The notes under the pieces: model-generated
What the model was told of the DNA's origin: nothing
Seen by the model: only the letters and a program-made list of their open reading frames with translations
Database searches by the model: none
Shown: in pieces, positions 1-60,176 of the stretch
How positions within the stretch are numbered: position 1 is the stretch's first letter
Layout of the letters: each line of letters opens with the position of its first letter
Source: a virus
Length of the DNA: 64,000 bases
Direction: 5' to 3' (one strand)
IMG/VR virus record: IMGVR_UViG_3300017613_002261
Translations under genes and position numbers: made by a program

Positions 1-116
1 ATTTTCTTTAAAGATTTATCCATTGATACTACATTTTCATATATTGCAGATATCAATAAGCCAAACACGATACTAATTAAAATACAAAATAACACTAAAA
101 TAACTGTATTACTCAT
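1..116 (-). CDS. small membrane protein, N-terminal part only (3' end lies beyond window start)
   Basis: ATG at 116-114 preceded by ttaaaggagaaaaa RBS. Reads MSNTVILVLFCILISIVFGLLISAIYENVV with one hydrophobic helix and stays open to position 1. Confidence 0.4.
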   Translation of the reverse strand, partial: MSNTVILVLFCILISIVFGLLISAIYENVVSMDKSLKK

Positions 117-1411: not shown

Positions 1412-1729
1412 TTAATCCTGAAATTTTGATAATATCATTTCTTGTTCACGATCCATTGATGACATATCACGTTTTTTATTGTTTCCAATAATTTCATCAT
1501 TCCAAGATTTATTATTAAGATATGTTTCAGGATTTTTCCTATACTGTTTATCAGGAGTAGAGTTCAAATAATTTGGCAATGTTTCAAATATTTTATCTAT
1601 ATCTTCTTTAGATAATTTAACGAACTTTTTATAACATTTTTCTTTAGATGCTTTTTTATCATACAGATCCCAAAAACGATTAAACGATTCTATGTCAGGC
1701 TGATCTATACTAACCTGATCTAATCTAAT
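1412..1729 (-). CDS. conserved phage protein (FNRFW..YDKK...NPETYLNNKSWNDE type), no canonical start codon
   Basis: 105-codon open frame with protein-like sequence (DQPDIESFNRFWDLYDKKASKEKCYKKFVKLSKEDIDKIFETLPNYLNSTPDKQYRKNPETYLNNKSWNDE). The first in-frame ATG/GTG/TTG comes too late, so the ORF track missed it. Confidence 0.45.
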   Translation of the reverse strand: MRLDQVSIDQPDIESFNRFWDLYDKKASKEKCYKKFVKLSKEDIDKIFETLPNYLNSTPDKQYRKNPETYLNNKSWNDEIIGNNKKRDMSSMDREQEMILSKFQD

Positions 1730-1790
1730 CTAATCTGATCTATACTAGACTGATCTAATCTAATCTGGGTTTCCATTTGGTTTCCATTTG
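1700..1790. repeat. iteron cluster: 4 x CTGATCTA-type units (15/20/15 nt spacing) plus 2 x 11-nt GTTTCCATTTG
   Basis: Read directly: ctgatctatactaac ctgatctaatctaatctaat ctgatctatactaga ctgatctaatctaat, then gtttccatttg gtttccatttg. Confidence 0.85.
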
Positions 1791-4007: not shown

Positions 4008-4174
4008 AATTATTCTCCTTTATATTCTTCTGCGCAACATTGCCAGTGTACTGAAATTGCTAAGGCATTATATGCTTCGCCTGATGCTACTTTTCCTTAT
4101 CTTCTCTACTACGAAGGCCTAAAGGGATAAGAGTAATATCATCCCTCTTTTAAATGGCTCCTCACAAAATTGAG

Positions 4175-4204
4175 ATATATATATATATCTATCTATCTAT
4201 CTAT
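4175..4204. repeat. compound microsatellite (AT)7(CTAT)4
   Basis: Read directly: atatatatatatat ctatctatctatctat, in a 390-nt intergenic gap. Confidence 0.9.
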
Positions 4205-5736: not shown

Positions 5737-6336
5737 CTAAGCGATAAAGAGATTCACTGGATTATCTTTATGAATATCATGGTCGTAATCACGCTTAAAA
5801 TGATCTACTCTAAAAGGAGTTGTTATTAGATGGAAACCTGACTTTGTCGGAAGAGTTAATAATACTTTCTCCCCTACAGGTGCTAATGTAGATAAATAAG
5901 ATTTTAAATCTTCCATATCACTTGCGTCCGTACAATTATCAACATCAACAATCCACTTCTTAGAGGACTCGTTTGATTTCTTTCCACAAGAGGATGCATA
6001 AACTCGGCGGGCTGCTCTATAGTTGGAATCCTGAGAAACAAGCTTAGCTAGTTCAGACAAGCTTGATAATGCAGTCTTTCTAAAAGATCTTCTGTTTAGA
6101 TTTATTACCGCTCTTGCATTGAAAATCACGCATAACTTCTTTATTTCATTGTAATGTTCATTAAGATAATTAAGATTATTAATGAAGTATTCCTTAATTA
6201 CTCTGACACTGCAGGACTGCGTTAGATTATCTTTCTTTCTCTGCAGAATTTGTAAGAAATAAAAATCATCTTCCGAATCGAAAGATAGTAAAGGAGATAT
6301 TCGTTCTAAATTGTCTATCATAATACTCACATACAA
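5737..6336 (-). CDS. hypothetical protein with prim-pol/AEP-like motif order (tentative)
   Basis: WIVDVDNC (DxD), TKSGFHLI (sGxH) and IHKDNP occur in the order expected for AEP motifs I-III. Assignment is weak. Confidence 0.3.
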   Translation of the reverse strand: MYVSIMIDNLERISPLLSFDSEDDFYFLQILQRKKDNLTQSCSVRVIKEYFINNLNYLNEHYNEIKKLCVIFNARAVINLNRRSFRKTALSSLSELAKLVSQDSNYRAARRVYASSCGKKSNESSKKWIVDVDNCTDASDMEDLKSYLSTLAPVGEKVLLTLPTKSGFHLITTPFRVDHFKRDYDHDIHKDNPVNLFIA

Positions 6337-7717: not shown

Positions 7718-8076
7718 AATTATTTCCTTTTACATTTTAAAATTCTGTACAATTTGTTCTTGACATAAGAGATTAGGCTGTAGAAGTGTGACATAAATGA
7801 GGAAATCAACCTAGGAGACGTAGGCTTCTCTGCTAGATCAGAAGAGGAAAGTCCATCTGAGAAGAAAACTATCGGAGGTGGAGGATAAACTGTCACACCG
7901 AACTTTGTTCTGTATTTGTACATATCTAATCTGAATGAATCATCCTCTTGCATAAAGAATCCTAAATAGATCAATACTATTCCGCCCCGAGAAACAATGC
8001 TTCTCTTCCGGATATTTTTCAAGGCAAGTAAAATTGTACTTAAAGCTTTTATTGGATCAATCGCATATACCGGCAT

Positions 8077-10001
8077 TTCCTACGGTAGCCTAAGTCTTAC
8101 TCGTTATCTTTACTCAATAGAAAGTTTCTGGTGCTCCGACGCCATTTCATAAATACTGTTGGGTTAGCTATTTGAACCAGGTATTTATTTACTTGAACCG
8201 AATTATAGTTATTGTAAGGATTGCTCATCCCGACCTATCCTTCCGAGCCATTCCTCTTGAGGAATAAACTTTCAAAACCATGAGGTTCTAATTCCGCATA
8301 GTATACTGGCCGTCCATCATTCCGGCACATGAATTAGTTATTGAAATTGGGAGTGGGGCTATCGTTTATCGCCTCAATAACAAAGTTGGATAAAGATGTT
8401 TCTGTATTGTCCCGGTTATAAATTATAGAATTCAAATGTCCTATACAGAACTAATTCCGTTTGAATACTGTCAGAGTTACGCTATTAATAAGTCTCTGGT
8501 CTAAGAAATCGAAGGACTCACACCTCTTCAAACGCTACCATCGTACTAAGTATAATAGATTCCTCTACTATCACTGTCTTATTATAATAATTATCTCTTA
8601 TCCTTTTCAGAGTTTTATCTAGTAGCTATTACGACTCAGGTAAATAACCAGGCTTCTCTAGCATTCGATATCCAACCTCTTAATCAAGGGAGACACCTAA
8701 TTTCGTTTAAACTTGGTGAACAGTCTTGCAAGTTTAAGTCCGTTAGGATTTTATAGGTAATAAAAACGGCTTGTTTTTACACTAAAAGAACCTGCCTCAT
8801 TTATCTCTAACGAAAGGTATTTAACTCTATTACCGAGCTAAACCATACAACAATTAGAGTGTCAATTCTACTTATTAAAGGATGGCGACTCCAAGGCCTG
8901 CCTACCCTAATTACCTATTTGCAGAAGTGAGGAATTGAACCTCACATGATCTCAATTTTAGGCTTATTTACTGCAGATATTACATTCGAAAATGTATCTC
9001 TACATCTGAGAACTCATCCTCTCGACCCCGTCGAGCCTTACGGATTAAATCTGTAGCAATAACCATTCTGCGATAATATAATACATAAAGGAGGAGCGTC
9101 TTAACATTAGACCATGGACACAAGAGATGGATAATCTTGGATCGGTCCGGATTCTAACCGGCATCTCTCCTTTTAGATAAAAGGGCATGCTTTACGGACA
9201 TAACCTACAAGAAAGACGTTCCTCTCTTTCTCTGCCGATAGAATATAATAGTCAGTGCTTCTCTACTTATTCACTATTATATGCATCTCGCTATCAATCC
9301 TAGAAGTGAAGATATCCTGCAAAATATCTATTAAGATTGAAGGGGATCGAACCCAAATAGAAATGTAAATAACATTCTATTCTCCAAAGACAATCTCACT
9401 CTTTAACATACTTAAAATAAACCGGGGCAAACTTGAAGCCTTACCATGGCGACTTCTAACGAGCTTTGCCGAAACCCGAGATACTAATCTCTCAACGGAG
9501 ACCCTGCCCTATGCAGGCGAAATTGAGAGTATCAATAAATCAATGACGGATTCTTGTAATGCCTTCCGTCTCAGGCTCTTTCGCTCAGTAACTAATGTTA
9601 CTGGCATGGCAGAGAACCATCTCCTGTTGTTATGATACAAACCTAGGGAGAGGTATTTGCAGAATAAATGAATTTACTCTGACCCATATATCTATACAAC
9701 CTTACAGGATAAAAGGCTTTGAAGAGTATCAAATAAATGATAAGCTAGGAATCACCCTAGTAGGGAATTACTTACTGTTACCCTCTTTCTCTTCGCCGTT
9801 TCACAGAGAGTGACTTGCTAGTGCAGTGGTATCATCTGAGAGAGGTAAGTATAGCATCCCGCATATGTAGATGTCTCACATTACGTAATCACCTAAGATT
9901 CAACCATTCAGAAGTTAATTAAGCTTCTGTAATGGAATTGAGACTTCCATATTCTGCGATGCTATGCTTAATATATAAATTAAGGTTTTATTTTATAACA
10001 C
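8077..10001 (-). ncRNA. unclassified large structured-RNA candidate or degenerate tRNA array
   Basis: No credible ORF on the coding strand, and visibly higher G+C than flanks. Many perfect local helices: 9489-9495/9523-9529 enclosing 9503-9507/9513-9517; 9586-9592/9597-9603; 9545-9550/9565-9570; 9210-9216/9225-9231; 9169-9175/9178-9184. T-arm-like modules at 8928-8944, 9147-9161 and 9342-9354. Confidence 0.4.
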
Positions 10002-10148
10002 TCAATCTTCTACATTTTCAGTGTTTGTACAGTTTAAACAAATAAACCTGTCTTGATCATAAGGACCTTCGTTTCCTTCTTCACAGAATATCATACCCTG
10101 CCAATGACATACAGGGCATTTTCTAATTGTATCTGAATAATTACACAT
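10002..10148 (-). CDS. 48-aa zinc-ribbon protein
   Basis: MCNYSDTIRKCPVCHWQGMIFCEEGNEGPYDQDRFICLNCTNTENVED, with an AGAGGA RBS. Below the track's length cut-off. Confidence 0.5.
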   Translation of the reverse strand: MCNYSDTIRKCPVCHWQGMIFCEEGNEGPYDQDRFICLNCTNTENVED

Positions 10149-10170
10149 AATATCCTCTTTTATATAATAT

Positions 10171-10236
10171 TTTAATGGGTTGGAGAGCTTATTATTAATT
10201 TCTCCTACTATCAGTTCTTGGATACCCGTTAATTTC
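10171..10236 (-). promoter_or_regulatory. copy A of the conserved intergenic element (candidate phage promoter plus 5' hairpin)
   Basis: Minus strand reads AAATTAACGGGTATCCAAGAACTGATAGTAG GAGAA-loop-CTCTCC AACCCATTAAAA. Lies upstream of the 48-aa ORF and the ORF-free block. Confidence 0.45.
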
Positions 10237-13444: not shown

Positions 13445-13495
13445 TGCATACTCCTAGAGTATAAAATATATAAATTAATTGTAAAGATTATAACA

Positions 13496-14143
13496 TTAAA
13501 ACCCGCGTAACATGTATATAGTATCTTCAGCGACCTCTTTAATATTTTCTAGATATATCGCTGCTTCACTATCTTTGTTCTTTACGGCTATCTTTAAATT
13601 AGATAAGGACATTTCAATCTCTTCGATACCGTCTATAACAGCATCCTGATGAGATAAAACACCTGATTTAGACTTCATTACTTTAGCGAAGTTAAGTTGA
13701 CGGAAGAATTTTAGATCGTCTTTATCCCACTTCTCATCAGTATCTTCATACTTCTTCTTTAATCTATCTGCCTCTGCATTTATCTTAGATACTGGAATAT
13801 CTTCTTTCTCTGAAATGTTTAATTTCTTATGAAGATCTCCTTTGACTAAGTCTTTAGGAATCCACTCCTCCGACTGGAAGGAGTCATAGGAAGATTTTAG
13901 TAAATCCGATACTTTAAATAATGTTAGAAGATTTCCTTCGACAGTATAATCAAATCCCATAAGATTTAATTCTCTCTCCATCTGATCATAAACCCGAGTC
14001 ATACTCTTAGCTTTTGATTTTATATGGTAAATGATAGAACCATTCTCGAGTTTCTCGGGAGATCCTAAAGAAAATAATTCGCTTACCTTATTATAGGCAG
14101 TGTTAAATGCATTATCATTGGAAATAAATGGTTTTGATTTCAT
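13496..14143 (-). CDS. hypothetical protein
   Basis: ORF track 13496-14179. The ATG at 14143 gives a TAATG overlap with the upstream stop. Confidence 0.55.
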   Translation of the reverse strand: MKSKPFISNDNAFNTAYNKVSELFSLGSPEKLENGSIIYHIKSKAKSMTRVYDQMERELNLMGFDYTVEGNLLTLFKVSDLLKSSYDSFQSEEWIPKDLVKGDLHKKLNISEKEDIPVSKINAEADRLKKKYEDTDEKWDKDDLKFFRQLNFAKVMKSKSGVLSHQDAVIDGIEEIEMSLSNLKIAVKNKDSEAAIYLENIKEVAEDTIYMLRGF

Positions 14144-15046: not shown

Positions 15047-16462
15047 CTACTCAAATAACTCGTTTAAATGAGACTTCGCAATGAAAGAATCCTCTCCCAT
15101 GTAGAAGTCTAATGTTTCTTGATTCTCTAAAAGTCTCTTGTATATCCATGCCTCCACAGTGTTTAATTCATTTGAATTATCGGGATAAACTGAGAGTAAT
15201 GTGTAGTAAAACTGTTTCAATGTCTGTCCTATACGAGATATTCTATCTTGAGACTGAATATACTTTTCGTTGGATAGTGGAGGCGTGTAATATAACGCTC
15301 TGCTGCAATTGACAAATGTGTGACCATGAGTTAAGCAGCTCATTATCGCTACTAAAACCTGCTTATCCCCTTTTATGAAACTCTCTTTATTTGATTCGAA
15401 ATCTGCAGATCTCATATTTCCTTTAAGGAATGTAAATGAAATTCCCATCTCGGATAATACTTCTTTTACCTGATTGAATTCATGAGTCCACTCGCACCAT
15501 ACTATAAGCTGGTTATCTCCAAAATCTTCCATGATATCCCGAAACATATCTCTCTTTGATGATTGCTTCGTGAATTTACCTATACAAACCTGTCTTAATC
15601 TAGTTATCTGAGCCAATAAGTGTTTTATTGGGATGTATTTCCCTTCAAACTGATCTATCCAAATCTTGAAGTCATTTAATATTGAACGGTATACTGAGTA
15701 TTCTTCATCATTTTGCTGACAATCGATCTTTATGAAGTTCTTTGGTGGAAGATCCAGGCACTCATCCTTTGTAAATGTTATTGCATACCGGTCTACAACT
15801 TTCTTCACTGCATAATGATCATATCTAAAGTCACGGGAGAATTCCCTTATAGAGCCACACTCAAAGGCACAAGAACCTTTCATTATATAAAATTGGTTAC
15901 GAATGTTTAAAGTATCACTGACGTAAGGAGTTCCTGTAGAAATTACTTTGATAGGAATAAGTTCTGTTCCTTTATATAAAGATTTGAAGATGGATGTTGT
16001 ATGATACTTAAATTTAGTCGACTCATCGAAAGCTGCCATCGAATATTTCTTTCTACGGATGACTCTCCAAAGGTTTATAAATGCCTCATAGTTAATTATG
16101 TTTACCTTATACCTATTTGATGATATTAATCTAGTCTTTCTCTCCCTATTTCCCATAATCACTAAAACAGATAATTTAGGACAAAACTTCTTAATCTCAT
16201 TCTTAAAGTTTATCATTAAGGACTTTGGAACTACTATTAATATATTTCTAGCTTCTCTCTTTGAAAGTCTATCTAAGAATAAGGAGAGAATTACAAGAGA
16301 TTTCCCTAGACCTGGATGCAGGAATAATGCTGAATGGTTTCTTTGAGAGGAGAAATGGAAAGACATCTTCTGATGATCGTAAAATGACATATCTCCCTTA
16401 AAATGAGATAATACATCATCAGGGATAGGAGCTAAATAATTTTTACGTGGATCTCGAGTCAA
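15047..16462 (-). CDS. SNF2/RAD54-family helicase
   Basis: LHPGLGKS (motif I), AFDEST (DExx box), and a C-terminal helicase lobe (LTHGHTF...QSQDRISRIGQ). TTG start. Confidence 0.8.
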   Translation of the reverse strand: MTRDPRKNYLAPIPDDVLSHFKGDMSFYDHQKMSFHFSSQRNHSALFLHPGLGKSLVILSLFLDRLSKREARNILIVVPKSLMINFKNEIKKFCPKLSVLVIMGNRERKTRLISSNRYKVNIINYEAFINLWRVIRRKKYSMAAFDESTKFKYHTTSIFKSLYKGTELIPIKVISTGTPYVSDTLNIRNQFYIMKGSCAFECGSIREFSRDFRYDHYAVKKVVDRYAITFTKDECLDLPPKNFIKIDCQQNDEEYSVYRSILNDFKIWIDQFEGKYIPIKHLLAQITRLRQVCIGKFTKQSSKRDMFRDIMEDFGDNQLIVWCEWTHEFNQVKEVLSEMGISFTFLKGNMRSADFESNKESFIKGDKQVLVAIMSCLTHGHTFVNCSRALYYTPPLSNEKYIQSQDRISRIGQTLKQFYYTLLSVYPDNSNELNTVEAWIYKRLLENQETLDFYMGEDSFIAKSHLNELFE

Positions 16463-16496
16463 AATAATTCCTTTTACACGGTTATTTATATATAAA

Positions 16497-16563
16497 TTTA
16501 ATGGGTTAGAGAAGATAACATGGAATTTCTCCTACTGTCAGTTCTCCCGTACCCTGTTAATTT
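16497..16563 (-). promoter_or_regulatory. copy B of the conserved intergenic element
   Basis: Minus strand reads AAATTAACAGGGTACGGGAGAACTGACAGTAG GAGAA-loop-TTCTC TAACCCATTAAAT, 35 nt upstream of the SNF2 start. Confidence 0.45.
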
Positions 16564-16738
16564 GTCTCTTGAGAATATCCCAATCGCTTTGAATATCTTT
16601 AGGACAATAACGCATCAGTTTCATGTTGATAAATTCTATTAAATCATATTTATCGCGAAGAAGTTCTTCGAGTTGATTTACAAGAGACTCATTAGTTAAA
16701 TCACTCATCAAGAATCTCTTTAACCTGTTTAAGATCAT
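16538..16738 (-). CDS. hypothetical protein
   Basis: 66-aa ORF. Its TGA stop lies inside element B. Confidence 0.5.
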   Translation of the reverse strand: MILNRLKRFLMSDLTNESLVNQLEELLRDKYDLIEFINMKLMRYCPKDIQSDWDILKRQINRVREN

Positions 16739-19911: not shown

Positions 19912-19972
19912 AATTATCTCCAAATATGAGTTATAATATTCCACTCATTAATATATAAATTAAAATTATTAA

Positions 19973-20146
19973 TTAAAACATCTGTTTAGATGCTTTAGAA
20001 GAGTCTCCCTCTGGTACTGCAGTAGAGGAGCTCTTAAGATTCTCCTGAAATTCTTTTTCCTCCAATTTATTATCAGGATGAACTCGTACTCTACGAATCT
20101 GCCCGTTCTTGTCTATAACCTCTTTAATGGGCCAATCTCTTTTCAT
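19973..20146 (-). CDS. 57-aa hypothetical protein
   Basis: MKRDWPIKEVIDKNGQIRRVRVHPDNKLEEKEF... fills the gap between two long genes. Below the track's cut-off. Confidence 0.4.
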   Translation of the reverse strand: MKRDWPIKEVIDKNGQIRRVRVHPDNKLEEKEFQENLKSSSTAVPEGDSSKASKQMF

Positions 20147-33014: not shown

Positions 33015-33116
33015 TTAAATCTCCAAACTCTAAATTATATACAATATATAAACTAAGTTAATAGTTTATAACACTTAATATAATTAAATTTATTTTATAT
33101 TATAATTTTATAACAT

Positions 33117-38135: not shown

Positions 38136-38522
38136 TTATAGTACCTCATCACTAAAATTATATCTATCTAGTGGAGATGATGCAAGGACTTTTCTCTTAG
38201 AGGGATTTAAAGATGTGTCAACCTCAATCTTCTTATCTCCTAAAAACATAATGACTGTTTCTACCACTACTTTTGGATGGAATAAAGCTAGCTTGTAATG
38301 TACTGCGGATTCCCAATCAGGGTCTCCAAAAAGAAGATGTTTAGATGAGACATAAGGACATTGAGTGGGAGTGCTATGATCTATTTTAACAGGGGAATTC
38401 ATTTCCTCTGCTAATTCATGATCGCAATACCTCACATCGTTATAACAAGAACATCTACCTGAAGAGGTTCTATGAATACAAAATACTCTTTCCTTTCGAG
38501 TAGGGATTTTATTGCAAATCAT
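38136..38522 (-). CDS. hypothetical Cys/His-rich protein
   Basis: 128-aa ORF. Confidence 0.5.
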   Translation of the reverse strand: MICNKIPTRKERVFCIHRTSSGRCSCYNDVRYCDHELAEEMNSPVKIDHSTPTQCPYVSSKHLLFGDPDWESAVHYKLALFHPKVVVETVIMFLGDKKIEVDTSLNPSKRKVLASSPLDRYNFSDEVL

Positions 38523-38805
38523 TTGAATAATCCTTCACAGGCATAAACGATTTTTGAGTATCAGGCATCCTAGGTCTTCCTGATGAGGAATAACTATCTC
38601 TCCAATTGTGCTCTTTCCAAGTAGCTATCTGATCAGGAGAGTCTATAACGCATAAGGAATAATCACTTTTACTTGAAGCGGCGATGAATCCTTTTAGTCT
38701 AAAAGACTTCCTCTTAGATGAACATGAAACACATAACTTCGTATTCGGAAGAATCTCTAACCTTGAATTAGGGATTAAATTACCGCAAGAACATTTCTTT
38801 GACAT
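38509..38805 (-). CDS. TraR/DksA-type C4 zinc-finger protein
   Basis: CSCGNLIPNSRLEILPNTKLCVSCS pattern. Confidence 0.5.
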   Translation of the reverse strand: MSKKCSCGNLIPNSRLEILPNTKLCVSCSSKRKSFRLKGFIAASSKSDYSLCVIDSPDQIATWKEHNWRDSYSSSGRPRMPDTQKSFMPVKDYSNDLQ

Positions 38806-38865
38806 AATATCTCCTTTAAAAATTATTTAAATAAAAATAAAATTTAACCGTTAGTTATAGCATAT

Positions 38866-38931
38866 TTTAATGGGTTAGAGGAATGATATGGATTTTGTTC
38901 TACTGTGAGTTCTTGGGTACCCTGTTAATTT
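38866..38931 (-). promoter_or_regulatory. copy C of the conserved intergenic element
   Basis: Minus strand reads AAATTAACAGGGTACCCAAGAACTCACAGTAG AACAAAATCCATATCATTCCTCT AACCCATTAAAA, 60 nt upstream of the ATG at 38805. Confidence 0.45.
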
Positions 38932-45915: not shown

Positions 45916-46179
45916 TCATGAATTATCTCCCTGTACCAATAAGGTTTTTATAAAAAATATATCCGATTCCTTAGAATCGATATTCAAAGTAGAAGATCTA
46001 CCAAAGACAGTAACATCACATTTCCTCTTCTTTGAAGAAGAGTCGATGCCTATCTGAAACTTACAAAATCCCGCCCCAGTTACTTTGGAAGGGTTTACAA
46101 CATCACAATGATTGCACTGAGTATCTAATAAAAGTGCAAAAGAATTATCGACTATAATATATTTAGATCCAAGTCCCAT
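45916..46179 (-). CDS. hypothetical protein
   Basis: I prefer the ATG at 46179 (AGAGG RBS). 87 aa. Confidence 0.5.
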   Translation of the reverse strand: MGLGSKYIIVDNSFALLLDTQCNHCDVVNPSKVTGAGFCKFQIGIDSSSKKRKCDVTVFGRSSTLNIDSKESDIFFIKTLLVQGDNS

Positions 46180-46225: not shown

Positions 46226-46270
46226 AACAGTGTTCCGACCTACTGTCAGTTCTCCAGTACCCTGTTATTT
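46226..46270 (-). promoter_or_regulatory. copy E (core only) of the conserved intergenic element
   Basis: Minus strand reads AAATAACAGGGTACTGGAGAACTGACAGTAG GTCGG, 60 nt upstream of the ATG at 46179. It lacks the AACCCATTAAA end. Confidence 0.4.
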
Positions 46271-46930
46271 TATAACATGGCCTCTACTAAGAAGATACTC
46301 CTTCTTTGTAGCTACTCTACCGACTGTATTAATCGCTTCAAAAATAACTTCTAGATTAGATAATATATAAGTATTTACATGAATTAATAACACACAAAGA
46401 TTTCTTCTATAAGGGAAATGATAATTAAAATAAGAGACTAATTCTTCTTTGGATAATTGATAGGAAGAATCCTTACGGGAATTCTCTTTTGGAATTTCTA
46501 GGTTCCATACGCAGATATCGTAATCCATATACATTACTGCTTGAAGTACTCCATTATTCATGAAGCCATAAGGAGCTCTAAATAAAGAAATGGAGTAATT
46601 GTAATTGGATTTGAAGAATTTATGAATATAAAGCATGTCCCGCTTGATAACGTGGCAGTTAGAATATTTTAACATTGATATGCTATGTGACTTTGTATGA
46701 TTTCCTATTAAGTGATTTGTATAAGAATCAAAACAAATGTTGAAGTCATTCGTTGATAAGGGTAATATCTTCTCTGTGACAAATAATATAGAAAAATAAT
46801 TATTTGACTGGAGAAAGGATATTAGATTATTAAATCCCGGTGCTGGAACATCATCCACCGTTATTAAGAATAACTTCTCTGGATAAAGGAAAATACTGAG
46901 ATAAGTTAGAGCTATAAGAAGATATTTCAT
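46265..46930 (-). CDS. polysaccharide deacetylase (NodB homology domain), secreted
   Basis: ITVDDVP, GNHTKSH and FRAPYG motifs. N-terminal signal-like helix. Confidence 0.6.
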   Translation of the reverse strand: MKYLLIALTYLSIFLYPEKLFLITVDDVPAPGFNNLISFLQSNNYFSILFVTEKILPLSTNDFNICFDSYTNHLIGNHTKSHSISMLKYSNCHVIKRDMLYIHKFFKSNYNYSISLFRAPYGFMNNGVLQAVMYMDYDICVWNLEIPKENSRKDSSYQLSKEELVSYFNYHFPYRRNLCVLLIHVNTYILSNLEVIFEAINTVGRVATKKEYLLSRGHVIK

Positions 46931-47552: not shown

Positions 47553-47768
47553 TTATTCTTTTGCTTTATATACAAAGTTAGAGTATTCTTTAGACATAAG
47601 CTTATTCTTAACGTACTCAGTCTCTAAACGTAAACGAAGTTGCTCTGTCTTCTGCTTCTCTATTTCTACCCGATCTGTAGAGTGGTTAAATAATGCCTGA
47701 CAGCCTCCTATACCTAAACACATAACTGCGATGCCTAGACCAAACCAAAATGAATCATCTATCTTCAT
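47553..47768 (-). CDS. small membrane protein
   Basis: 71-aa ORF with one TM helix (FWFGLGIAVMCLGIGGC). Confidence 0.45.
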   Translation of the reverse strand: MKIDDSFWFGLGIAVMCLGIGGCQALFNHSTDRVEIEKQKTEQLRLRLETEYVKNKLMSKEYSNFVYKAKE

Positions 47769-47790: not shown

Positions 47791-47860
47791 CAACTGCTCT
47801 ATTAATATAGCAACTGCTCTATTAATATAGCAACTGCTCTATTAATATAGCAACTGCTCT
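47791..47860. repeat. 3.5 tandem copies of a 20-bp unit (caactgctctattaatatag)
   Basis: Read directly. The repeat spans the last codons of gene 47822-48217 and the gap before gene 47553-47768. Confidence 0.9.
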
Positions 47861-50419: not shown

Positions 50420-50495
50420 AACTATTTCCTAGGTTATTTATAAATATATAAAAGTAGGGTATTAAATGTAACATTATTGAGATAATGATATTACG

Positions 50496-55826: not shown

Positions 55827-56894
55827 TTAAAAATTACTTGGGTTACCTGCGTTAAAAGGAGAACCACCGCCTTGAGGAGGATTGCCTCCTTGAGGAAATG
55901 CTGTGGCATTACCCTGACCACCAGGAGTTTTTGATGCATTATTAAAATTAGGCATCCCTCCCGACTGTTGACCATACTGCTGGTCATTACTTCCGTAGTT
56001 CTTCATCATATTTAAAAACTGTTCTTTAGAATAGGATTTAGCTACCATATCTGATAAGTGAGCCCATTTCTCTTCTATCTTCTGTTCTATCTCAGCACGA
56101 TTACTAAAATTCAACCAATAAGCTGAATTATCTTGCTGTACTAAAACCTGTTCAAAAGAAGGAGTAGGGTACATGCCATTTGCATGAGTTGTTACTACAT
56201 CAACATAACGAGGATACATACTCTTTGTACCTGGGTCAAAACCAGTAACAAAATTCTGTAACTGTTTTGCTTGATTCTGGCCTACAATAACAGCTTCTAA
56301 TTCATAACTCTCAGACAGAGGCTGGTAACTATCATCAATAGCCGAATATCTTAGAACTACTACACCATAACGAGGCTTTGAAGATCCATAATACTGCTCT
56401 GTAATAACACCTAATTCTTCAATACTCTTCCTTAAATGAGTAGAGAAAACGGTATTCTTAACTATAAAATCATACTTTACTAAAGAAATTAAATCATATC
56501 TTCCTTTAATAGGAGAATACTTAGGTAAAGGATCTTTAATCTTCGTCATAAAAGACATAGTAGTTCCTTTAGAAGCCGATGGTGCTGGTTTTGATGGCAC
56601 TGAGGACTGCATTGAAGGAGCTGATTGAATAGGATTATTTACCTGAATACCTGTAGATATATGACTCTCCCTCGCTGGCGGTGCTGTTGTAGAAACAGCC
56701 TGTGCTGGCGCCTGTGCTGGCGGTGCTGTTGTAGAAACAGCCTGTGCTGGCGCCTGTGCTGGCGGTGCTGTTGTAGAAACAGCCTGTGCTGGCGGTGCCT
56801 GTGCTGGCGGTGCCTGTGCTGGCGCCTGTGCTGGCGCCTGTGCTGGCGGCATCTCGTTTGTTTTCTTAAATAATGAAGTTAAATTGCTTTCCAT
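55827..56894 (-). CDS. hypothetical protein with N-terminal PAQA/VSTTAPPAQA repeats and a Q/G/N-rich tail
   Basis: 355-aa ORF. The N-terminal low-complexity repeats are encoded by the 42-nt tandem repeat. Its position next to recombination genes would fit an ssDNA-binding role, but that is unproven. Confidence 0.55.
   Translation of the reverse strand: MESNLTSLFKKTNEMPPAQAPAQAPAQAPPAQAPPAQAVSTTAPPAQAPAQAVSTTAPPAQAPAQAVSTTAPPARESHISTGIQVNNPIQSAPSMQSSVPSKPAPSASKGTTMSFMTKIKDPLPKYSPIKGRYDLISLVKYDFIVKNTVFSTHLRKSIEELGVITEQYYGSSKPRYGVVVLRYSAIDDSYQPLSESYELEAVIVGQNQAKQLQNFVTGFDPGTKSMYPRYVDVVTTHANGMYPTPSFEQVLVQQDNSAYWLNFSNRAEIEQKIEEKWAHLSDMVAKSYSKEQFLNMMKNYGSNDQQYGQQSGGMPNFNNASKTPGGQGNATAFPQGGNPPQGGGSPFNAGNPSNF
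56674..56850. repeat. 3 x 42-nt tandem repeat followed by 12-15-nt sub-repeats (coding)
   Basis: gctggcggtgctgttgtagaaacagcctgtgctggcgcctgt repeated at 56674, 56716 and 56758. Confidence 0.9.
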
Positions 56895-58347: not shown

Positions 58348-59002
58348 CAGTAGTCGTTCCTGTACCATTACCTCCTTCGAAGGTATAACCACGGTCTCCC
58401 CCTGTAAAGGAGTCTCCCGCGGGGTTAGAATCTGATGGCTTAGGATCCACATTATCAAATGGAGGTTTTTCATACATGTTTAAAGCACCTAAAGCTTTAT
58501 CTAATTCAGATGTTATTTCCTTTCTTAAAGAGCTAAACGATCTATTCCCTTTCAACATCAAATCAAACTTAAGCCATTTGCTACCACCCAGTCCTTGAGA
58601 GAATACCATACGGTAACTTCGCTGAAACTGACCTCCTATCTCGTTATGCTCATGAGAAGAAGCTTCTACCGGTGATATATCAGTTATCTCGTAACGATGA
58701 TTAACTTCATCAAAAACAAGCTCCATCTCGATCTTAAATAAATCAATTAGAAAATTATAAATCTCATCTAAAACTTCTCTGTTAAGATAATCAAATAAAG
58801 GTACTGTAACTCTACTTCCTTCTACAATAGAAGTAGCAAAGTACAAATTTGTACCATGATTAAAATAAAGGATAAGACCAGTAGAAGTTGTAAAAGTAGC
58901 CGTAAAAGTAGGTACTGATATAAAATTCTTGCACATAATCTTATCACTAGGATTTCCCTCGGAATCTAATCCCCCGGGAAGAAAAACTAAACCAAAATTC
59001 AT
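58340..59002 (-). CDS. hypothetical protein
   Basis: 220-aa ORF with a Gly/Thr-rich C-terminus. Confidence 0.55.
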   Translation of the reverse strand: MNFGLVFLPGGLDSEGNPSDKIMCKNFISVPTFTATFTTSTGLILYFNHGTNLYFATSIVEGSRVTVPLFDYLNREVLDEIYNFLIDLFKIEMELVFDEVNHRYEITDISPVEASSHEHNEIGGQFQRSYRMVFSQGLGGSKWLKFDLMLKGNRSFSSLRKEITSELDKALGALNMYEKPPFDNVDPKPSDSNPAGDSFTGGDRGYTFEGGNGTGTTTDD

Positions 59003-59628
59003 ACGTTCTCCTTCTGAACTTCACTATAATATTTCTTAAGTCTAAAAAATAGAAAACTAACCATACCCGCGAGGATACTTAGCTCCACATTTCGGAGCTT
59101 TGCTTCCTGGACATTCTCTGGACTCTCTGCAACACTAAAACCTTGATAAGAGGATACTACATATAAAAATAGTGCTGAAAATAATGATATTACGCTAAAC
59201 TTACGCATCTTCAATACAAGGACGTTCTTATTATCAACAATAAAATCCATTTTTGATTTCATAGAATCATCTATAACAACATTAATAATAGCTAGATTAA
59301 AAGTACTGCAAAAGAGTCCCGCAGACATGTTAAAAATATCCTGTTTATCATTAAATTCCATATCATAAAAATAAAGACAATCATCCCGTTTCTGGAAAAT
59401 AATCTGAGTAAATCTATTTAATAGATGAAATAGTGTATCAGAGGATATCATCCTATCAAATGACTCAAATACTCTGTTACTTAAATCAGATACCACTGAT
59501 CTGCTAGTCTCCATCACATTAAGGAAGTCAAAATAAACTTTATCCGGGTAAGAATAATCTCCCGCTAGAACCTTTGAATAATTCTTAAACAAAAATTCAA
59601 TATCTTTTTCCATAGAACTTAAAGGCAT
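58999..59628 (-). CDS. hypothetical protein with C-terminal TM segments
   Basis: 209-aa ORF, first gene downstream of element D. Confidence 0.55.
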   Translation of the reverse strand: MPLSSMEKDIEFLFKNYSKVLAGDYSYPDKVYFDFLNVMETSRSVVSDLSNRVFESFDRMISSDTLFHLLNRFTQIIFQKRDDCLYFYDMEFNDKQDIFNMSAGLFCSTFNLAIINVVIDDSMKSKMDFIVDNKNVLVLKMRKFSVISLFSALFLYVVSSYQGFSVAESPENVQEAKLRNVELSILAGMVSFLFFRLKKYYSEVQKENV

Positions 59629-59700
59629 AATAACTCCAAATGATTCATATAACTATATATATAAATTAAAAAAGGAATAACATACTCATTTAAAGAGTCT

Positions 59701-59766
59701 TTTAATGGATTGAAAAAATGATATGGATTTTGTTCTACTGTGAGTTCTTGGGTACCCTGTTAATTT
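59701..59766 (-). promoter_or_regulatory. copy D of the conserved intergenic element
   Basis: Minus strand reads AAATTAACAGGGTACCCAAGAACTCACAGTAG AACAAAATCCATATCATTTTTTC AATCCATTAAAA, 72 nt upstream of the ATG at 59628. Confidence 0.45.
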
Positions 59767-60176
59767 CTACCATTAACAGAATTTAGGATATAACTCGCTG
59801 CCATTATAAGTAATATCGATCCTGCTGATCCTACTGAAACTCCGATAATAAAACCCTTTCTATCTTTAGCATGTAGATCATCGAATTTATGAGTTAAACT
59901 AGTGACCCTATCCCGTTCTAAAGATATCGACATAGCCATAGAATTAGTTAAATTTGAAAATGAGAAGATTGCCTCTTCTAAAGAAGCAATCTTCTCTTTG
60001 TAAAGAAGTTCCATCTTCCAGCTAGAGTATAAAATCTTCATCGATCTATCAGGAACAATATGAACAGCAGACTTCGTTGACAGAGTATCAAATCCTTCAG
60101 GAAAGAACTTAGTATTAGTAAAAGACTCTCCTAATAGAGAACAAAGAAGAGCCAAAAGAAATAAAGATACTCTCAT
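59760..60176 (-). CDS. secreted protein with C-terminal TM anchor (spanin-like position)
   Basis: Signal-like MRVSLFLLALLCSLLG and a C-terminal hydrophobic helix. 4-nt overlap with the upstream gene. Confidence 0.35.
   Translation of the reverse strand: MRVSLFLLALLCSLLGESFTNTKFFPEGFDTLSTKSAVHIVPDRSMKILYSSWKMELLYKEKIASLEEAIFSFSNLTNSMAMSISLERDRVTSLTHKFDDLHAKDRKGFIIGVSVGSAGSILLIMAASYILNSVNGRN

What the first reader, a model, noticed from the sequence alone, without database searches (positions are those of the whole stretch)
38866..38931. Five-copy 65-nt intergenic element with a T7/SP6-like core and a covarying hairpin: candidate promoters for a phage-specific RNA polymerase
Copies lie at 10171-10236, 16497-16563, 38866-38931, 59701-59766 and 46226-46270 (core only). 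All are in the gene-sense orientation, 35-75 nt upstream of a start codon. They often overlap the stop codon of the preceding gene.

The minus-strand consensus is AAATTAACAGGGTAC-nnn-AGAACT(G/C)ACAGTAG, then a hairpin, then AACCCATTAAA. The core ACTCACAGTAG/ACTGACAGTAG resembles the -10..-1 region of single-subunit RNAP promoters (T7 GACTCACTATAG, SP6 GTGACACTATAG). The AATTAAC start recalls the T3 promoter.

The hairpin sequence differs between copies while pairing is kept. The stems are GGAGA/TCTCC in A, GAGAA/TTCTC in B, and AGAAC.AAAAT/ATT(C/T)(C/T)T.. in C and D. This mirrors the stem-loop at the 5' end of T7 class III transcripts.

The genes that follow are the 48-aa ORF plus ORF-free block, the SNF2 helicase block, the TraR-like gene block, a block of unknown genes, and gene 45916-46179.
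Basis: partly seen in the sequence, partly recalled or inferred. Interest (0 to 1): 0.7.

Follow-up and report, generated by a model that had tools for sequence, protein, structure and literature searches.

The report
Repeated promoter-like motif in jumbo phage
A nearly invariant 32-base motif sits just upstream of gene blocks nine times, always in the gene direction, in an uncultivated phage of about 223 kb; it is most likely a phage-specific promoter, probably read by the host RNA polymerase carrying a phage-encoded sigma factor and not by a T7-like enzyme, and the claimed covarying hairpin is not supported.

Summary
The repeat is real. All five window copies exist at the stated places, and the core has 5 hits against 0.05 expected by chance.

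The window joins IMG/VR contig 3300017527_000423 through a 60-nt exact overlap, and genes from both lie on one 223,005-nt JGI contig. The joined 117.4 kb holds nine copies. All are on the gene-sense strand, at gene ends or in spacers, 28-112 nt before a start codon. A profile search scores them 34-43 bits, and the next best hit scores 5.7 bits.

The conserved unit is a 32-bp bipartite core, AAATTAACAGGGTAY-NNN-RGAACTSAYAGYAG. The downstream module is optional: full in six copies, partial in one, absent in two.

- **Hairpin:** RNAalifold gives no consensus pairs. 77% of cells pair against 74% in shuffles, and single folds are no better than shuffles.
- **T7/T3/SP6 resemblance:** this is at chance level, 9-12 of 23 positions.

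No RNA polymerase gene or catalytic motif occurs in the 117 kb. The genome does encode a sigma-70-family factor and a DksA/TraR-like protein. The core's length and two-block layout fit a -35/-10 promoter.

Best reading: a phage-specific promoter for host polymerase with the phage sigma (0.45). A phage polymerase encoded in the unseen ~105 kb remains possible (0.2).

The parts
59735..59766 (-). Copy D core: AAATTAACAGGGTACCCAAGAACTCACAGTAG
   Evidence: 40.6 bits. The TAA stop of upstream ORF 59760-60176 lies inside AATTAAC.
59699..59734 (-). Copy D downstream module: AACAAAATCCATATCATTTTTTC followed by the 3' box AATCCATTAAAAG
   Evidence: The next gene, 58999-59628, starts 106 nt after the core.
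46240..46271 (-). Copy E, core only: AAAATAACAGGGTACTGGAGAACTGACAGTAG
   Evidence: 37.3 bits. It has no 3' box. The stop of upstream ORF 46265-46930 lies inside the core. The next gene starts at the ATG at 46179, which has an AAGAGG ribosome-binding site.
38900..38931 (-). Copy C core (the finding's own coordinates): AAATTAACAGGGTACCCAAGAACTCACAGTAG
   Evidence: 40.6 bits.
38864..38899 (-). Copy C downstream module: AACAAAATCCATATCATTCCTCT followed by the 3' box AACCCATTAAAAT
   Evidence: The DksA/TraR-type gene 38509-38805 follows 94 nt after the core.
16532..16563 (-). Copy B core: AAATTAACAGGGTACGGGAGAACTGACAGTAG
   Evidence: 39.0 bits. The TGA stop of upstream ORF 16538-16738 is the TGA within ACTGAC.
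16495..16531 (-). Copy B downstream module: GAGAAATTCCATGTTATCTTCTCT followed by the 3' box AACCCATTAAATT
   Evidence: The SNF2 helicase gene 15047-16462 (TTG start) follows.
10205..10235 (-). Copy A core with a 1-nt deletion: AAATTAAC-GGGTATCCAAGAACTGATAGTAG
   Evidence: 33.7 bits.
10169..10204 (-). Copy A downstream module: GAGAAATTAATAATAAGCTCTCC followed by the 3' box AACCCATTAAAAT
   Evidence: It is followed by the 48-aa zinc-ribbon ORF 10002-10148 and then an ORF-free block of about 1.9 kb.

Best explanation
The 32-bp core is a phage-specific promoter that heads transcription units of a jumbo phage of about 223 kb. It is most likely read by the host multisubunit RNA polymerase after the polymerase is redirected by the phage's own sigma-70-family factor (P0001, 476 aa).

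**Proposed layout (inferred, not shown).**
- Block I, AAATTAAC(A)GGGTAY, covers the -35 region.
- Block II, RGAACT-SAYAGT-AG, covers an extended -10.
- Within SAYAGT, the invariant A would be the -11 base and the T (8 of 9 copies) the -7 base.
- Transcription would start about 5-8 nt after the core, in the purine-rich GAGAAA/AACAAA stretch.

**The downstream module.** It consists of AAAATCCAT, a pyrimidine tract and AACCCATTAAAAT. It is full in six copies, partial in one and absent in two, so it is an optional leader or regulatory add-on and not part of the promoter proper.

**Shown:** the motif, its copy number, strand, placement and conservation pattern; the absence of conserved RNA structure; and the sigma and DksA/TraR genes.

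**Inferred:** that the motif initiates transcription, which factor reads it, and the register.
For: **Placement**
- There are nine copies in 117.4 kb. All are on the sense strand and end in a spacer 28-112 nt before a start codon.
- They precede blocks for replication or repair genes, for tail fibres, for the clamp loader through sigma, terminase and portal, and for the capsid.

**Conservation**
- The score distribution is all-or-none: 34-43 bits for the nine copies against 5.7 bits for the next hit.
- Conservation starts abruptly at AAATTAAC and ends at GTAG.
- Three central positions vary freely (CCA, GGG, TGG, CTA, TCA, CAG, TTA), which argues for selection on the flanks rather than recent copying.
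- Core-only copies (E, r1) show that the core is the functional unit.

**Fit to a sigma-type promoter**
- The conserved span of 32 bp in two blocks, centres about 18-23 bp apart, matches the -36 to -5 footprint of a sigma-70-family holoenzyme (established knowledge). It is about 13 nt longer than T7-group promoters.

**Transcription genes in the genome**
- The same genome encodes a sigma factor. All the best PDB hits are RpoS or SigA. There are 49 library hits, and 8 of the 10 scanned carry both Sigma70_r2 and Sigma70_r4 in Pfam; one more carries Sigma70_r4 only and one has no Pfam hit.
- SNF2, sigma and TerL are all recorded on one 223,005-nt contig.
- A DksA/TraR zinc-finger gene, a family that binds bacterial RNA polymerase, lies directly behind copy C.
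- No RNA polymerase family or catalytic motif was found in any ORF of the 117 kb.
- Perfect TTGACA-N17-TATAAT promoters occur elsewhere, so host-type transcription is used.
Against: - There are no transcript data, so promoter activity is inferred only.
- The proposed -10 (SAYAGT) is a poor match to TATAAT, and its register is assumed.
- The 'spacer' bases GGGTAY and RGAACT are as conserved as the putative -35 and -10 elements. That is unusual for sigma-dependent promoters and more typical of the long, near-identical promoters of single-subunit phage polymerases.
- A second sense-only intergenic motif, TGTTAYAWW-N12-TTTATATATT, could equally be the phage sigma's target.
- The motif precedes both replication and structural genes, so it is not a simple 'late' class.
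- About 105 kb of the genome was not seen.
Confidence: 0.45

Rival explanations
1. The core is the promoter of a phage-encoded RNA polymerase, either single-subunit T7/N4-like or a phage multisubunit enzyme. That polymerase would be encoded in the part of the genome not seen, with the start at the G after GTA.
For: The placement and orientation evidence is the same as for the best explanation. The information content is very high, about 49 bits over 36 positions, with no degenerate copies. From general knowledge, this is typical of T7-group promoter sets. The motif serves both replication and structural genes, as T7 class II and III promoters do. About 105 kb of the ~223-kb genome is unexamined.
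Against: - No RNA polymerase Pfam family, T7-type motif B or C, or DFDGD-type motif occurs in 117.4 kb.
- Similarity to the T7, T3, SP6 and K11 consensus sequences is at chance level.
- The conserved span of 32 bp exceeds the -17 to +6 of T7-group promoters.
- The genome carries a sigma factor and a DksA/TraR-like gene, which make sense only with the host polymerase.
Confidence: 0.2
2. The element is not a promoter. It would be a cis-acting site read on the transcript or on the DNA of long read-through operons. Candidates are a cleavage site for a sequence-specific endoribonuclease, an antitermination or regulatory protein-binding site, or a strand-specific nick site of the kind known in phiKMV-like and T5-like phages.
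For: No terminator precedes any copy, and upstream ORFs run into the core, so the element is probably also transcribed through. The strict strand bias and long sequence-specific conservation without structure suit a protein-recognised site. In full copies the ends form an inverted repeat, TTAA..GGGT / ACCC.TTAA, with 94% of cells complementary. That could be two half-sites.
Against: Every copy sits immediately before a gene start, not at random gene junctions. Core-only copies lack the second half-site. No antisense or complementary partner exists in 117 kb. There is no Rfam hit. Nothing in the gene content identifies a matching nuclease or nickase.
Confidence: 0.2
3. The element is a MITE-like or recombination-spread selfish repeat, or a mobile promoter cassette similar to the PeSL cassettes of T4-type phages. 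Its present positions would reflect insertion history.
For: - Full copies are about 65 nt with imperfect terminal inverted repeats and TTAA at both ends.
- Copies C and D are near-identical over about 60 nt and 80% identical over 103 nt, which suggests recent copying or gene conversion (family D2).
- The element occurs only in this genome among the IMG/VR, metagenome and GTDB scans.
Against: - All nine copies share one orientation and a pre-gene position.
- No target-site duplication is conserved; r2 and r4 have CTAA.
- Truncated copies keep a perfect core, which is the opposite of decay.
- The three central positions vary while the flanks are invariant, which indicates selection.
- No transposase family was found in the window ORFs.
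Confidence: 0.1

Closest known systems
Phage sigma-factor-dependent promoter sets, such as Bacillus phage SPO1 gp28 and gp33/34 promoters, phiEco32 gp36 promoters and T4 gp55 late promoters (from general knowledge)
   Same: They are phage-specific, differ from the host consensus, are repeated before gene blocks in the sense orientation, and have the cognate sigma encoded by the phage. SPO1-type promoters share the bipartite layout with a spacing of about 17-18 bp.
   Different: Here 29 of 32 positions are nearly invariant, including the 'spacer'. The putative -10 (SAYAGT) resembles none of the known ones. The sigma has a C-terminal extension of about 230 aa with no known family. No experimental link exists between this sigma and the motif.
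T7-group single-subunit RNA polymerase promoters (T7, T3, SP6, K11)
   Same: They are long, near-identical promoters scattered through a one-strand genome ahead of both DNA-metabolism and structural genes, and they often overlap the end of the preceding gene. There is local word identity (ACTCAC, AATTAAC, TAGGAGA).
   Different: The overall match is at chance level. The conserved span is 32 bp against 23 bp. AATTAAC is displaced by about 13 nt relative to its position in T3. No cognate polymerase gene was found in 117 kb.
PeSL (promoter-early stem-loop) cassettes of T4-type phages (from general knowledge)
   Same: Both are repeated intergenic modules that combine a promoter with a downstream element, and both may be spread by recombination.
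   Different: PeSLs carry host sigma-70 early promoters and a genuine stem-loop. Here the promoter-like part is not sigma-70-like, and the stem-loop is not supported.

Membership tests
T7-group single-subunit RNAP promoter | Sequence similarity to the T7/T3/SP6/K11 consensus (-17 to +6) | tested here: not met
   The best ungapped match is 9-12 of 23 positions, which 22-99% of shuffled cores reach. The consensus sequences were taken from general knowledge.
T7-group single-subunit RNAP promoter | One contiguous conserved block of about 23 bp ending at +6 | tested here: not met
   The conserved unit is 32 bp in two blocks (15 and 14 bp) around 3 free positions.
T7-group single-subunit RNAP promoter | Cognate single-subunit RNA polymerase gene in the same genome | tested here: inconclusive
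   None was found in 117.4 kb by Pfam or motif scans. About 105 kb of the 223-kb genome was unavailable.
T7-group single-subunit RNAP promoter | Transcription starts at the conserved G | not testable with these tools
   This needs 5'-end mapping.
Sigma-70-family-dependent promoter (phage sigma) | Two conserved elements about 16-18 bp apart, spanning roughly -36 to -7 | tested here: met
   The blocks AAATTAACAGGGTAY and RGAACTSAYAGYAG are separated by 3 free bases. TTAAC..(16-17 nt)..SAYAGT fits this geometry.
Sigma-70-family-dependent promoter (phage sigma) | -10 element with A at -11 and T at -7 | tested here: inconclusive
   In SAYAGT the A is invariant (9 of 9) and the T is present in 8 of 9 copies (alignment). 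The register is assumed, not determined.
Sigma-70-family-dependent promoter (phage sigma) | Cognate sigma factor encoded by the phage | tested here: met
   P0001 best matches RpoS and SigA in the PDB. Eight of its 10 scanned homologues carry both Sigma70_r2 and Sigma70_r4 above Pfam cut-offs; one more carries Sigma70_r4 only and one has no Pfam hit. It is on the same 223-kb contig as the window's SNF2 gene. P0001 itself has no direct Pfam hit.
Sigma-70-family-dependent promoter (phage sigma) | Holoenzyme with that sigma initiates at the site | not testable with these tools
   This needs in vitro transcription or footprinting.
Structured cis-regulatory RNA / 5' stem-loop | Conserved secondary structure with compensatory changes | tested here: not met
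   RNAalifold finds 0 pairs. 77% of cells pair against 74% in shuffles, with 1 compensatory cell. Fold z-scores range from -1.9 to +1.8. There is no Rfam match.
MITE-like mobile repeat | Terminal inverted repeats, target-site duplication and insertion in either orientation | tested here: not met
   An imperfect inverted repeat is present in the 6 full copies. There is no conserved duplication, 9 of 9 copies share one orientation and a pre-gene position, and truncated copies keep an intact core.
Intrinsic terminator | G+C-rich hairpin followed by a T run | tested here: not met
   No stable hairpin and no T run follows the element. Terminator scans place none at the copies.

The most novel reading that the evidence does not exclude
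The 32-bp core might be read in an unusual way. One possibility is a sigma factor whose uncharacterised 230-aa C-terminal domain contacts the conserved 'spacer' bases, giving a promoter as long and specific as those of single-subunit polymerases but on the host enzyme. Another is an unrecognised phage polymerase encoded in the unseen half of the genome. A variant is that the full 65-nt form, bounded by the inverted repeats TTAAC(A)GGGT / ACCCATTAA, is a mobile promoter cassette.
Probability: 0.15. Interest if true: 0.6.

Novelty: new member of a known kind. Interest (0 to 1): 0.35.

Why it matters
If the motif is a promoter, it gives an operon map for a deeply divergent, uncultivated jumbo phage; most of its proteins have no family. 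It also provides a clean, very specific promoter and sigma pair that could be tested in vitro. The correction matters too: a local word resemblance to T7 promoters and a purine/pyrimidine tract that looks like a hairpin do not by themselves indicate a T7-like transcription system.

Tried and rejected
- **Closest genomes and RNA families.** Megablast of 20 kb against GenBank phages found no match. Rfam at gathering and E-value thresholds found nothing.
- **Metagenome scan.** A degenerate core pattern gave 56 loci, all chance or coding matches without the flanking boxes.
- **IMG/VR scans.** Only contig 3300017527_000423 carries true copies.
- **GTDB genomes scan.** The single hit lies antisense in the rplA-rplJ spacer of a Yersinia MAG, and I judge it chance.
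- **Extending the window.** Exact-protein look-ups were not on record. An end-sequence scan of IMG/VR found no overlap.
- **Structure of the sigma.** The single-sequence AlphaFold model had pLDDT 37 and was unusable, so no fold search was run.
- **Related phage.** The related 213.6-kb phage (TerL 47% identical) has 61.6% G+C. The 21.8 kb retrieved shows no copy of the motif and no analogous repeat.
- **Literature.** A string search for the core words returned only unrelated primer sequences. The Ma-LMM01 transcriptome paper (PMC5780444) reports only sigma-70-like motifs and is not informative here.
- **Other readings of the element.** Neither a small ORF starting in the leader nor a sigma-70 promoter formed by the 3' box TAAAAT is conserved among copies (by inspection).
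- **tRNA search.** Relaxed ARAGORN settings gave only noise.

Full report
**1. Observation**

The 23-nt core pattern GGGTAYNNNAGAACTSAYAGTAG occurs 5 times against 0.05 expected from shuffles. The 27-nt pattern occurs 4 times against 0.00 expected. Copy A carries a 1-nt deletion (AAC-GGG).

All ORFs of the window are on the minus strand, so every copy is in the sense orientation. The stop codon of the preceding ORF lies inside the core in copy B (the TGA of ACTGAC) and in copies D and E (the TAA of AATTAAC/AAATAAC). The gap from the end of the 65-nt element to the next start codon is 22-72 nt, and the gap from the end of the core is 55-106 nt.

**2. Wider context**

An exact-pattern scan of IMG/VR found true copies only in contig IMGVR_UViG_3300017527_000423, which is 53,524 nt. 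I retrieved the whole contig in four overlapping loci and assembled it.

- Window bases 1-60 are 100% identical to the reverse complement of contig bases 1-60, so the contig continues the window on the gene-sense strand.
- The window's SNF2 helicase (P0053), the contig's sigma-like protein (P0001) and its terminase (P0050) are each recorded on a JGI contig of 223,005 nt.
- G+C is 33.6% in the window and 33.4% in the contig segment that was sampled (L067).

I therefore treat the window and the contig as 117.4 kb of one jumbo phage of about 223 kb, with all genes in one direction.

The window encodes replication, repair and nucleotide-metabolism functions. These include SNF2, a RecA/UvsX-like protein, an SbcC-like protein and a radical-SAM protein from family searches. 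Several others (SbcD-like, thymidylate synthase, Fpg/Nei and endonuclease IV) I read from the translations.

The contig encodes tail fibres, DNA ligase, primase, a family A DNA polymerase, clamp loader, a 5'-3' (flap-type) exonuclease, the sigma-like protein, terminase, and putative portal, NUDIX and capsid proteins.

**3. Copy number and conservation**

The joined sequence has nine copies: five in the window and four in the contig, at 6216, 24534, 31064 and 46592. A profile built from the nine cores scores them at 34-43 bits, and the next best hit on either strand scores 5.7 bits. There are no degenerate copies and no antisense copy. All nine lie at gene ends or in spacers, which together make up about 10% of the sequence.

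The consensus is (A/T)AA(T/A)TAAC(A)GGGTA(C/T)-NNN-(A/G)GAACT(C/G)A(C/T)AG(T/C)AG. The sequence upstream of it is unrelated among copies. The three central positions differ freely (CCA, GGG, TGG, CTA, TCA, CAG, TTA). That pattern indicates selection on the flanking 29 positions rather than mere recent duplication. Copies C and D, however, do share 60 identical nucleotides and 80% identity over 103 nt.

The downstream module consists of GA(G/C)AAAATCCAT, a pyrimidine tract, and the box AACCCATTAAAAT. It is full in six copies (A-D, r2, r4). Copy r3 keeps only its first part and lacks the box. Copies E and r1 lack it altogether; in r1 the start codon follows the core after 28 nt. The core is therefore the functional unit.

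**4. The hairpin**

- RNAalifold on the six full copies predicts no consensus pair.
- Single-sequence folds are not more stable than dinucleotide shuffles, with z from -1.9 to +1.8. Copies C and D fold worse than their shuffles.
There is one compensatory cell, and 68% of cells still pair when the register is slid by one or two columns.

The apparent stems are a purine tract facing a pyrimidine tract, not a covarying helix.

One real feature emerged. In the full copies the two ends are complementary, TTAA..GGGT with ACCC.TTAA. 94% of cells pair against at most 69% when slid, and all positions are invariant. This is an imperfect terminal inverted repeat of unknown meaning.

**5. The T7/SP6 resemblance**

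The best ungapped alignment of the core to the T7, T3, SP6 and K11 consensus promoters (sequences from general knowledge) matches 9-12 of 23 positions, which 22-99% of shuffled cores reach. The shared words cannot be aligned together. AATTAAC and TCAC are 2 nt apart in T3 and 15 nt apart here.

**6. Which polymerase?**

No ORF in the 117.4 kb hits an RNA polymerase family. None has T7-type motifs B or C, or a DFDGD-type metal-binding motif. The large ORFs of 600, 987, 1476 and 835 aa look like tail-fibre proteins from their repeats and, for the 835-aa one, its F5/8 type C domains.

The contig does encode P0001.
- Its best PDB matches are all RpoS or SigA, covering regions 2 and 4 (E = 0.0016).
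- A full HMMER scan of 1.84 billion representatives gives 49 hits. Most are proteins of 170-260 aa aligned over residues 71-245.
- Of the ten hits scanned, eight carry both Sigma70_r2 and Sigma70_r4 above Pfam's cut-offs, one more carries Sigma70_r4 only, and one has no Pfam hit.

P0001 is therefore a divergent sigma-70-family factor with a C-terminal extension of about 230 aa.

The gene directly behind copy C has a DksA/TraR C4 zinc finger (26.9 bits against a cut-off of 24.9). That family binds the secondary channel of bacterial RNA polymerase (general knowledge). Two perfect TTGACA-N17-TATAAT promoters occur in the contig, one of them before a tRNA gene. Strong intrinsic terminators follow the capsid genes. 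Everything seen points to use of the host polymerase.

**7. Mechanism proposed**

The core is a phage-specific promoter.
- Its conserved span of 32 bp, in two blocks, equals the -36 to -5 region contacted by a sigma-70-family holoenzyme.
- With SAYAGT as the -10 hexamer, the invariant A falls at -11 and the T (8 of 9 copies) at -7. These are the two bases that sigma region 2 flips out (general knowledge).
- TTAAC then lies 16-17 bp upstream, an AAC-containing -35 like those of group 4 sigma factors.
- The start would lie 5-8 nt after the core.

This register is inference.

The weak points are the strong conservation of the 'spacer' bases, which is more like single-subunit-polymerase promoters, and the existence of a second sense-only motif that could be the sigma's real target. 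I put the sigma model at 0.45. A phage polymerase encoded in the unseen 105 kb gets 0.2, a non-promoter protein- or RNase-recognised site 0.2, and a selfish or mobile repeat 0.1.

**8. Comparison and novelty**

The element works like the promoter sets of phage-encoded sigma factors or phage polymerases. It is not a member of the T7-group promoter family: two defining features were tested and not met, and one was inconclusive. It matches no Rfam family. It is found nowhere else in the IMG/VR, JGI metagenome and GTDB collections as scanned. No paper in the library contains its core words.

It is a new member of a known kind, a lineage-specific phage promoter motif in a very divergent jumbo phage. 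Its interest is moderate. The main value is an operon map and a testable sigma and promoter pair, plus the correction of the T7 and hairpin reading.

Noticed in passing
window 8077-10001 (sense = minus strand): An ORF-free block of about 1.9 kb lies just downstream of copy A and a 48-aa zinc-ribbon ORF. No ORF longer than 72 aa exists on either strand. G+C is 37.7% (2-kb window 8001-10000), against about 33% elsewhere. There is no Rfam hit. It contains a tRNA T-arm-like sequence, GTGAGGTTCAATTCCTCAC, near 8920-8941, and relaxed ARAGORN calls a weak tRNA-Asn(att)-like structure near 9331-9398. It may hold unrecognised non-coding RNA genes.
   Followed up: partly
window 9970-10006, 13465-13501, 19948-19980, 33043-33079, about 50443-50470 (minus strand): This is a second intergenic motif found only on the sense strand, TGTTAYAWW-N12-TTTATATATT, lying 15-55 nt before start codons. 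TTTATATATT occurs 9 times on the sense strand and 0 times on the antisense strand of the 117 kb. TGTTATAAW has 12 hits against 4.3 expected. It is probably another promoter class, either an extended -10 type or a bipartite one.
   Followed up: partly
L074 240-268 and 1537-1565; tRNA at L074 1578-1650: Two perfect TTGACA-N17-TATAAT promoters occur in the adjoining contig. The second lies directly before a tRNA that ARAGORN calls tRNA-Asn with the unusual anticodon ATT.
   Followed up: no
window 47791-47860: Three and a half tandem copies of a 20-nt unit, CAACTGCTCTATTAATATAG, sit in a spacer before gene 47553-47768. They look like iterons or operators.
   Followed up: no
window 1700-1766 and 4169-4203: Short tandem repeats of CTGATCTAATCTAAT type, and a (GATA)n/(TA)n tract, lie in long spacers.
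   Followed up: no
window 56674-56841, inside gene 55827-56894: 42-nt tandem repeats encode PAQAPAQA... in the N-terminal part of a 355-aa protein with no family hit.
   Followed up: no
window 1-60 and L074 1-60: The window's first 60 bases are the exact reverse complement of the start of IMG/VR contig 3300017527_000423. Genes from both lie on a 223,005-nt JGI contig, so the source is a jumbo phage. The only detectable relative is ENA ERZ13693045 NODE_305 (213,587 nt; TerL 47% and portal 43% identical), which has 61.6% G+C.
   Followed up: yes
the four full window copies, e.g. window 38864-38931, and the two full copies in the adjoining contig: The two ends of the 65-nt form are an imperfect inverted repeat, TTAAC(A)GGGT ... 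ACCCATTAA, with TTAA at both extremities. It is invariant, so it gives no information on RNA pairing, and its meaning is unknown.
   Followed up: partly
window ORFs between 38136 and 63776 (alignment set A4): Besides the DksA/TraR-like gene, single ORFs hit HD_4 and CYTH domains. Together these hint at phage interference with host stringent-response or RNA polymerase control. The exact ORFs were not resolved.
   Followed up: no
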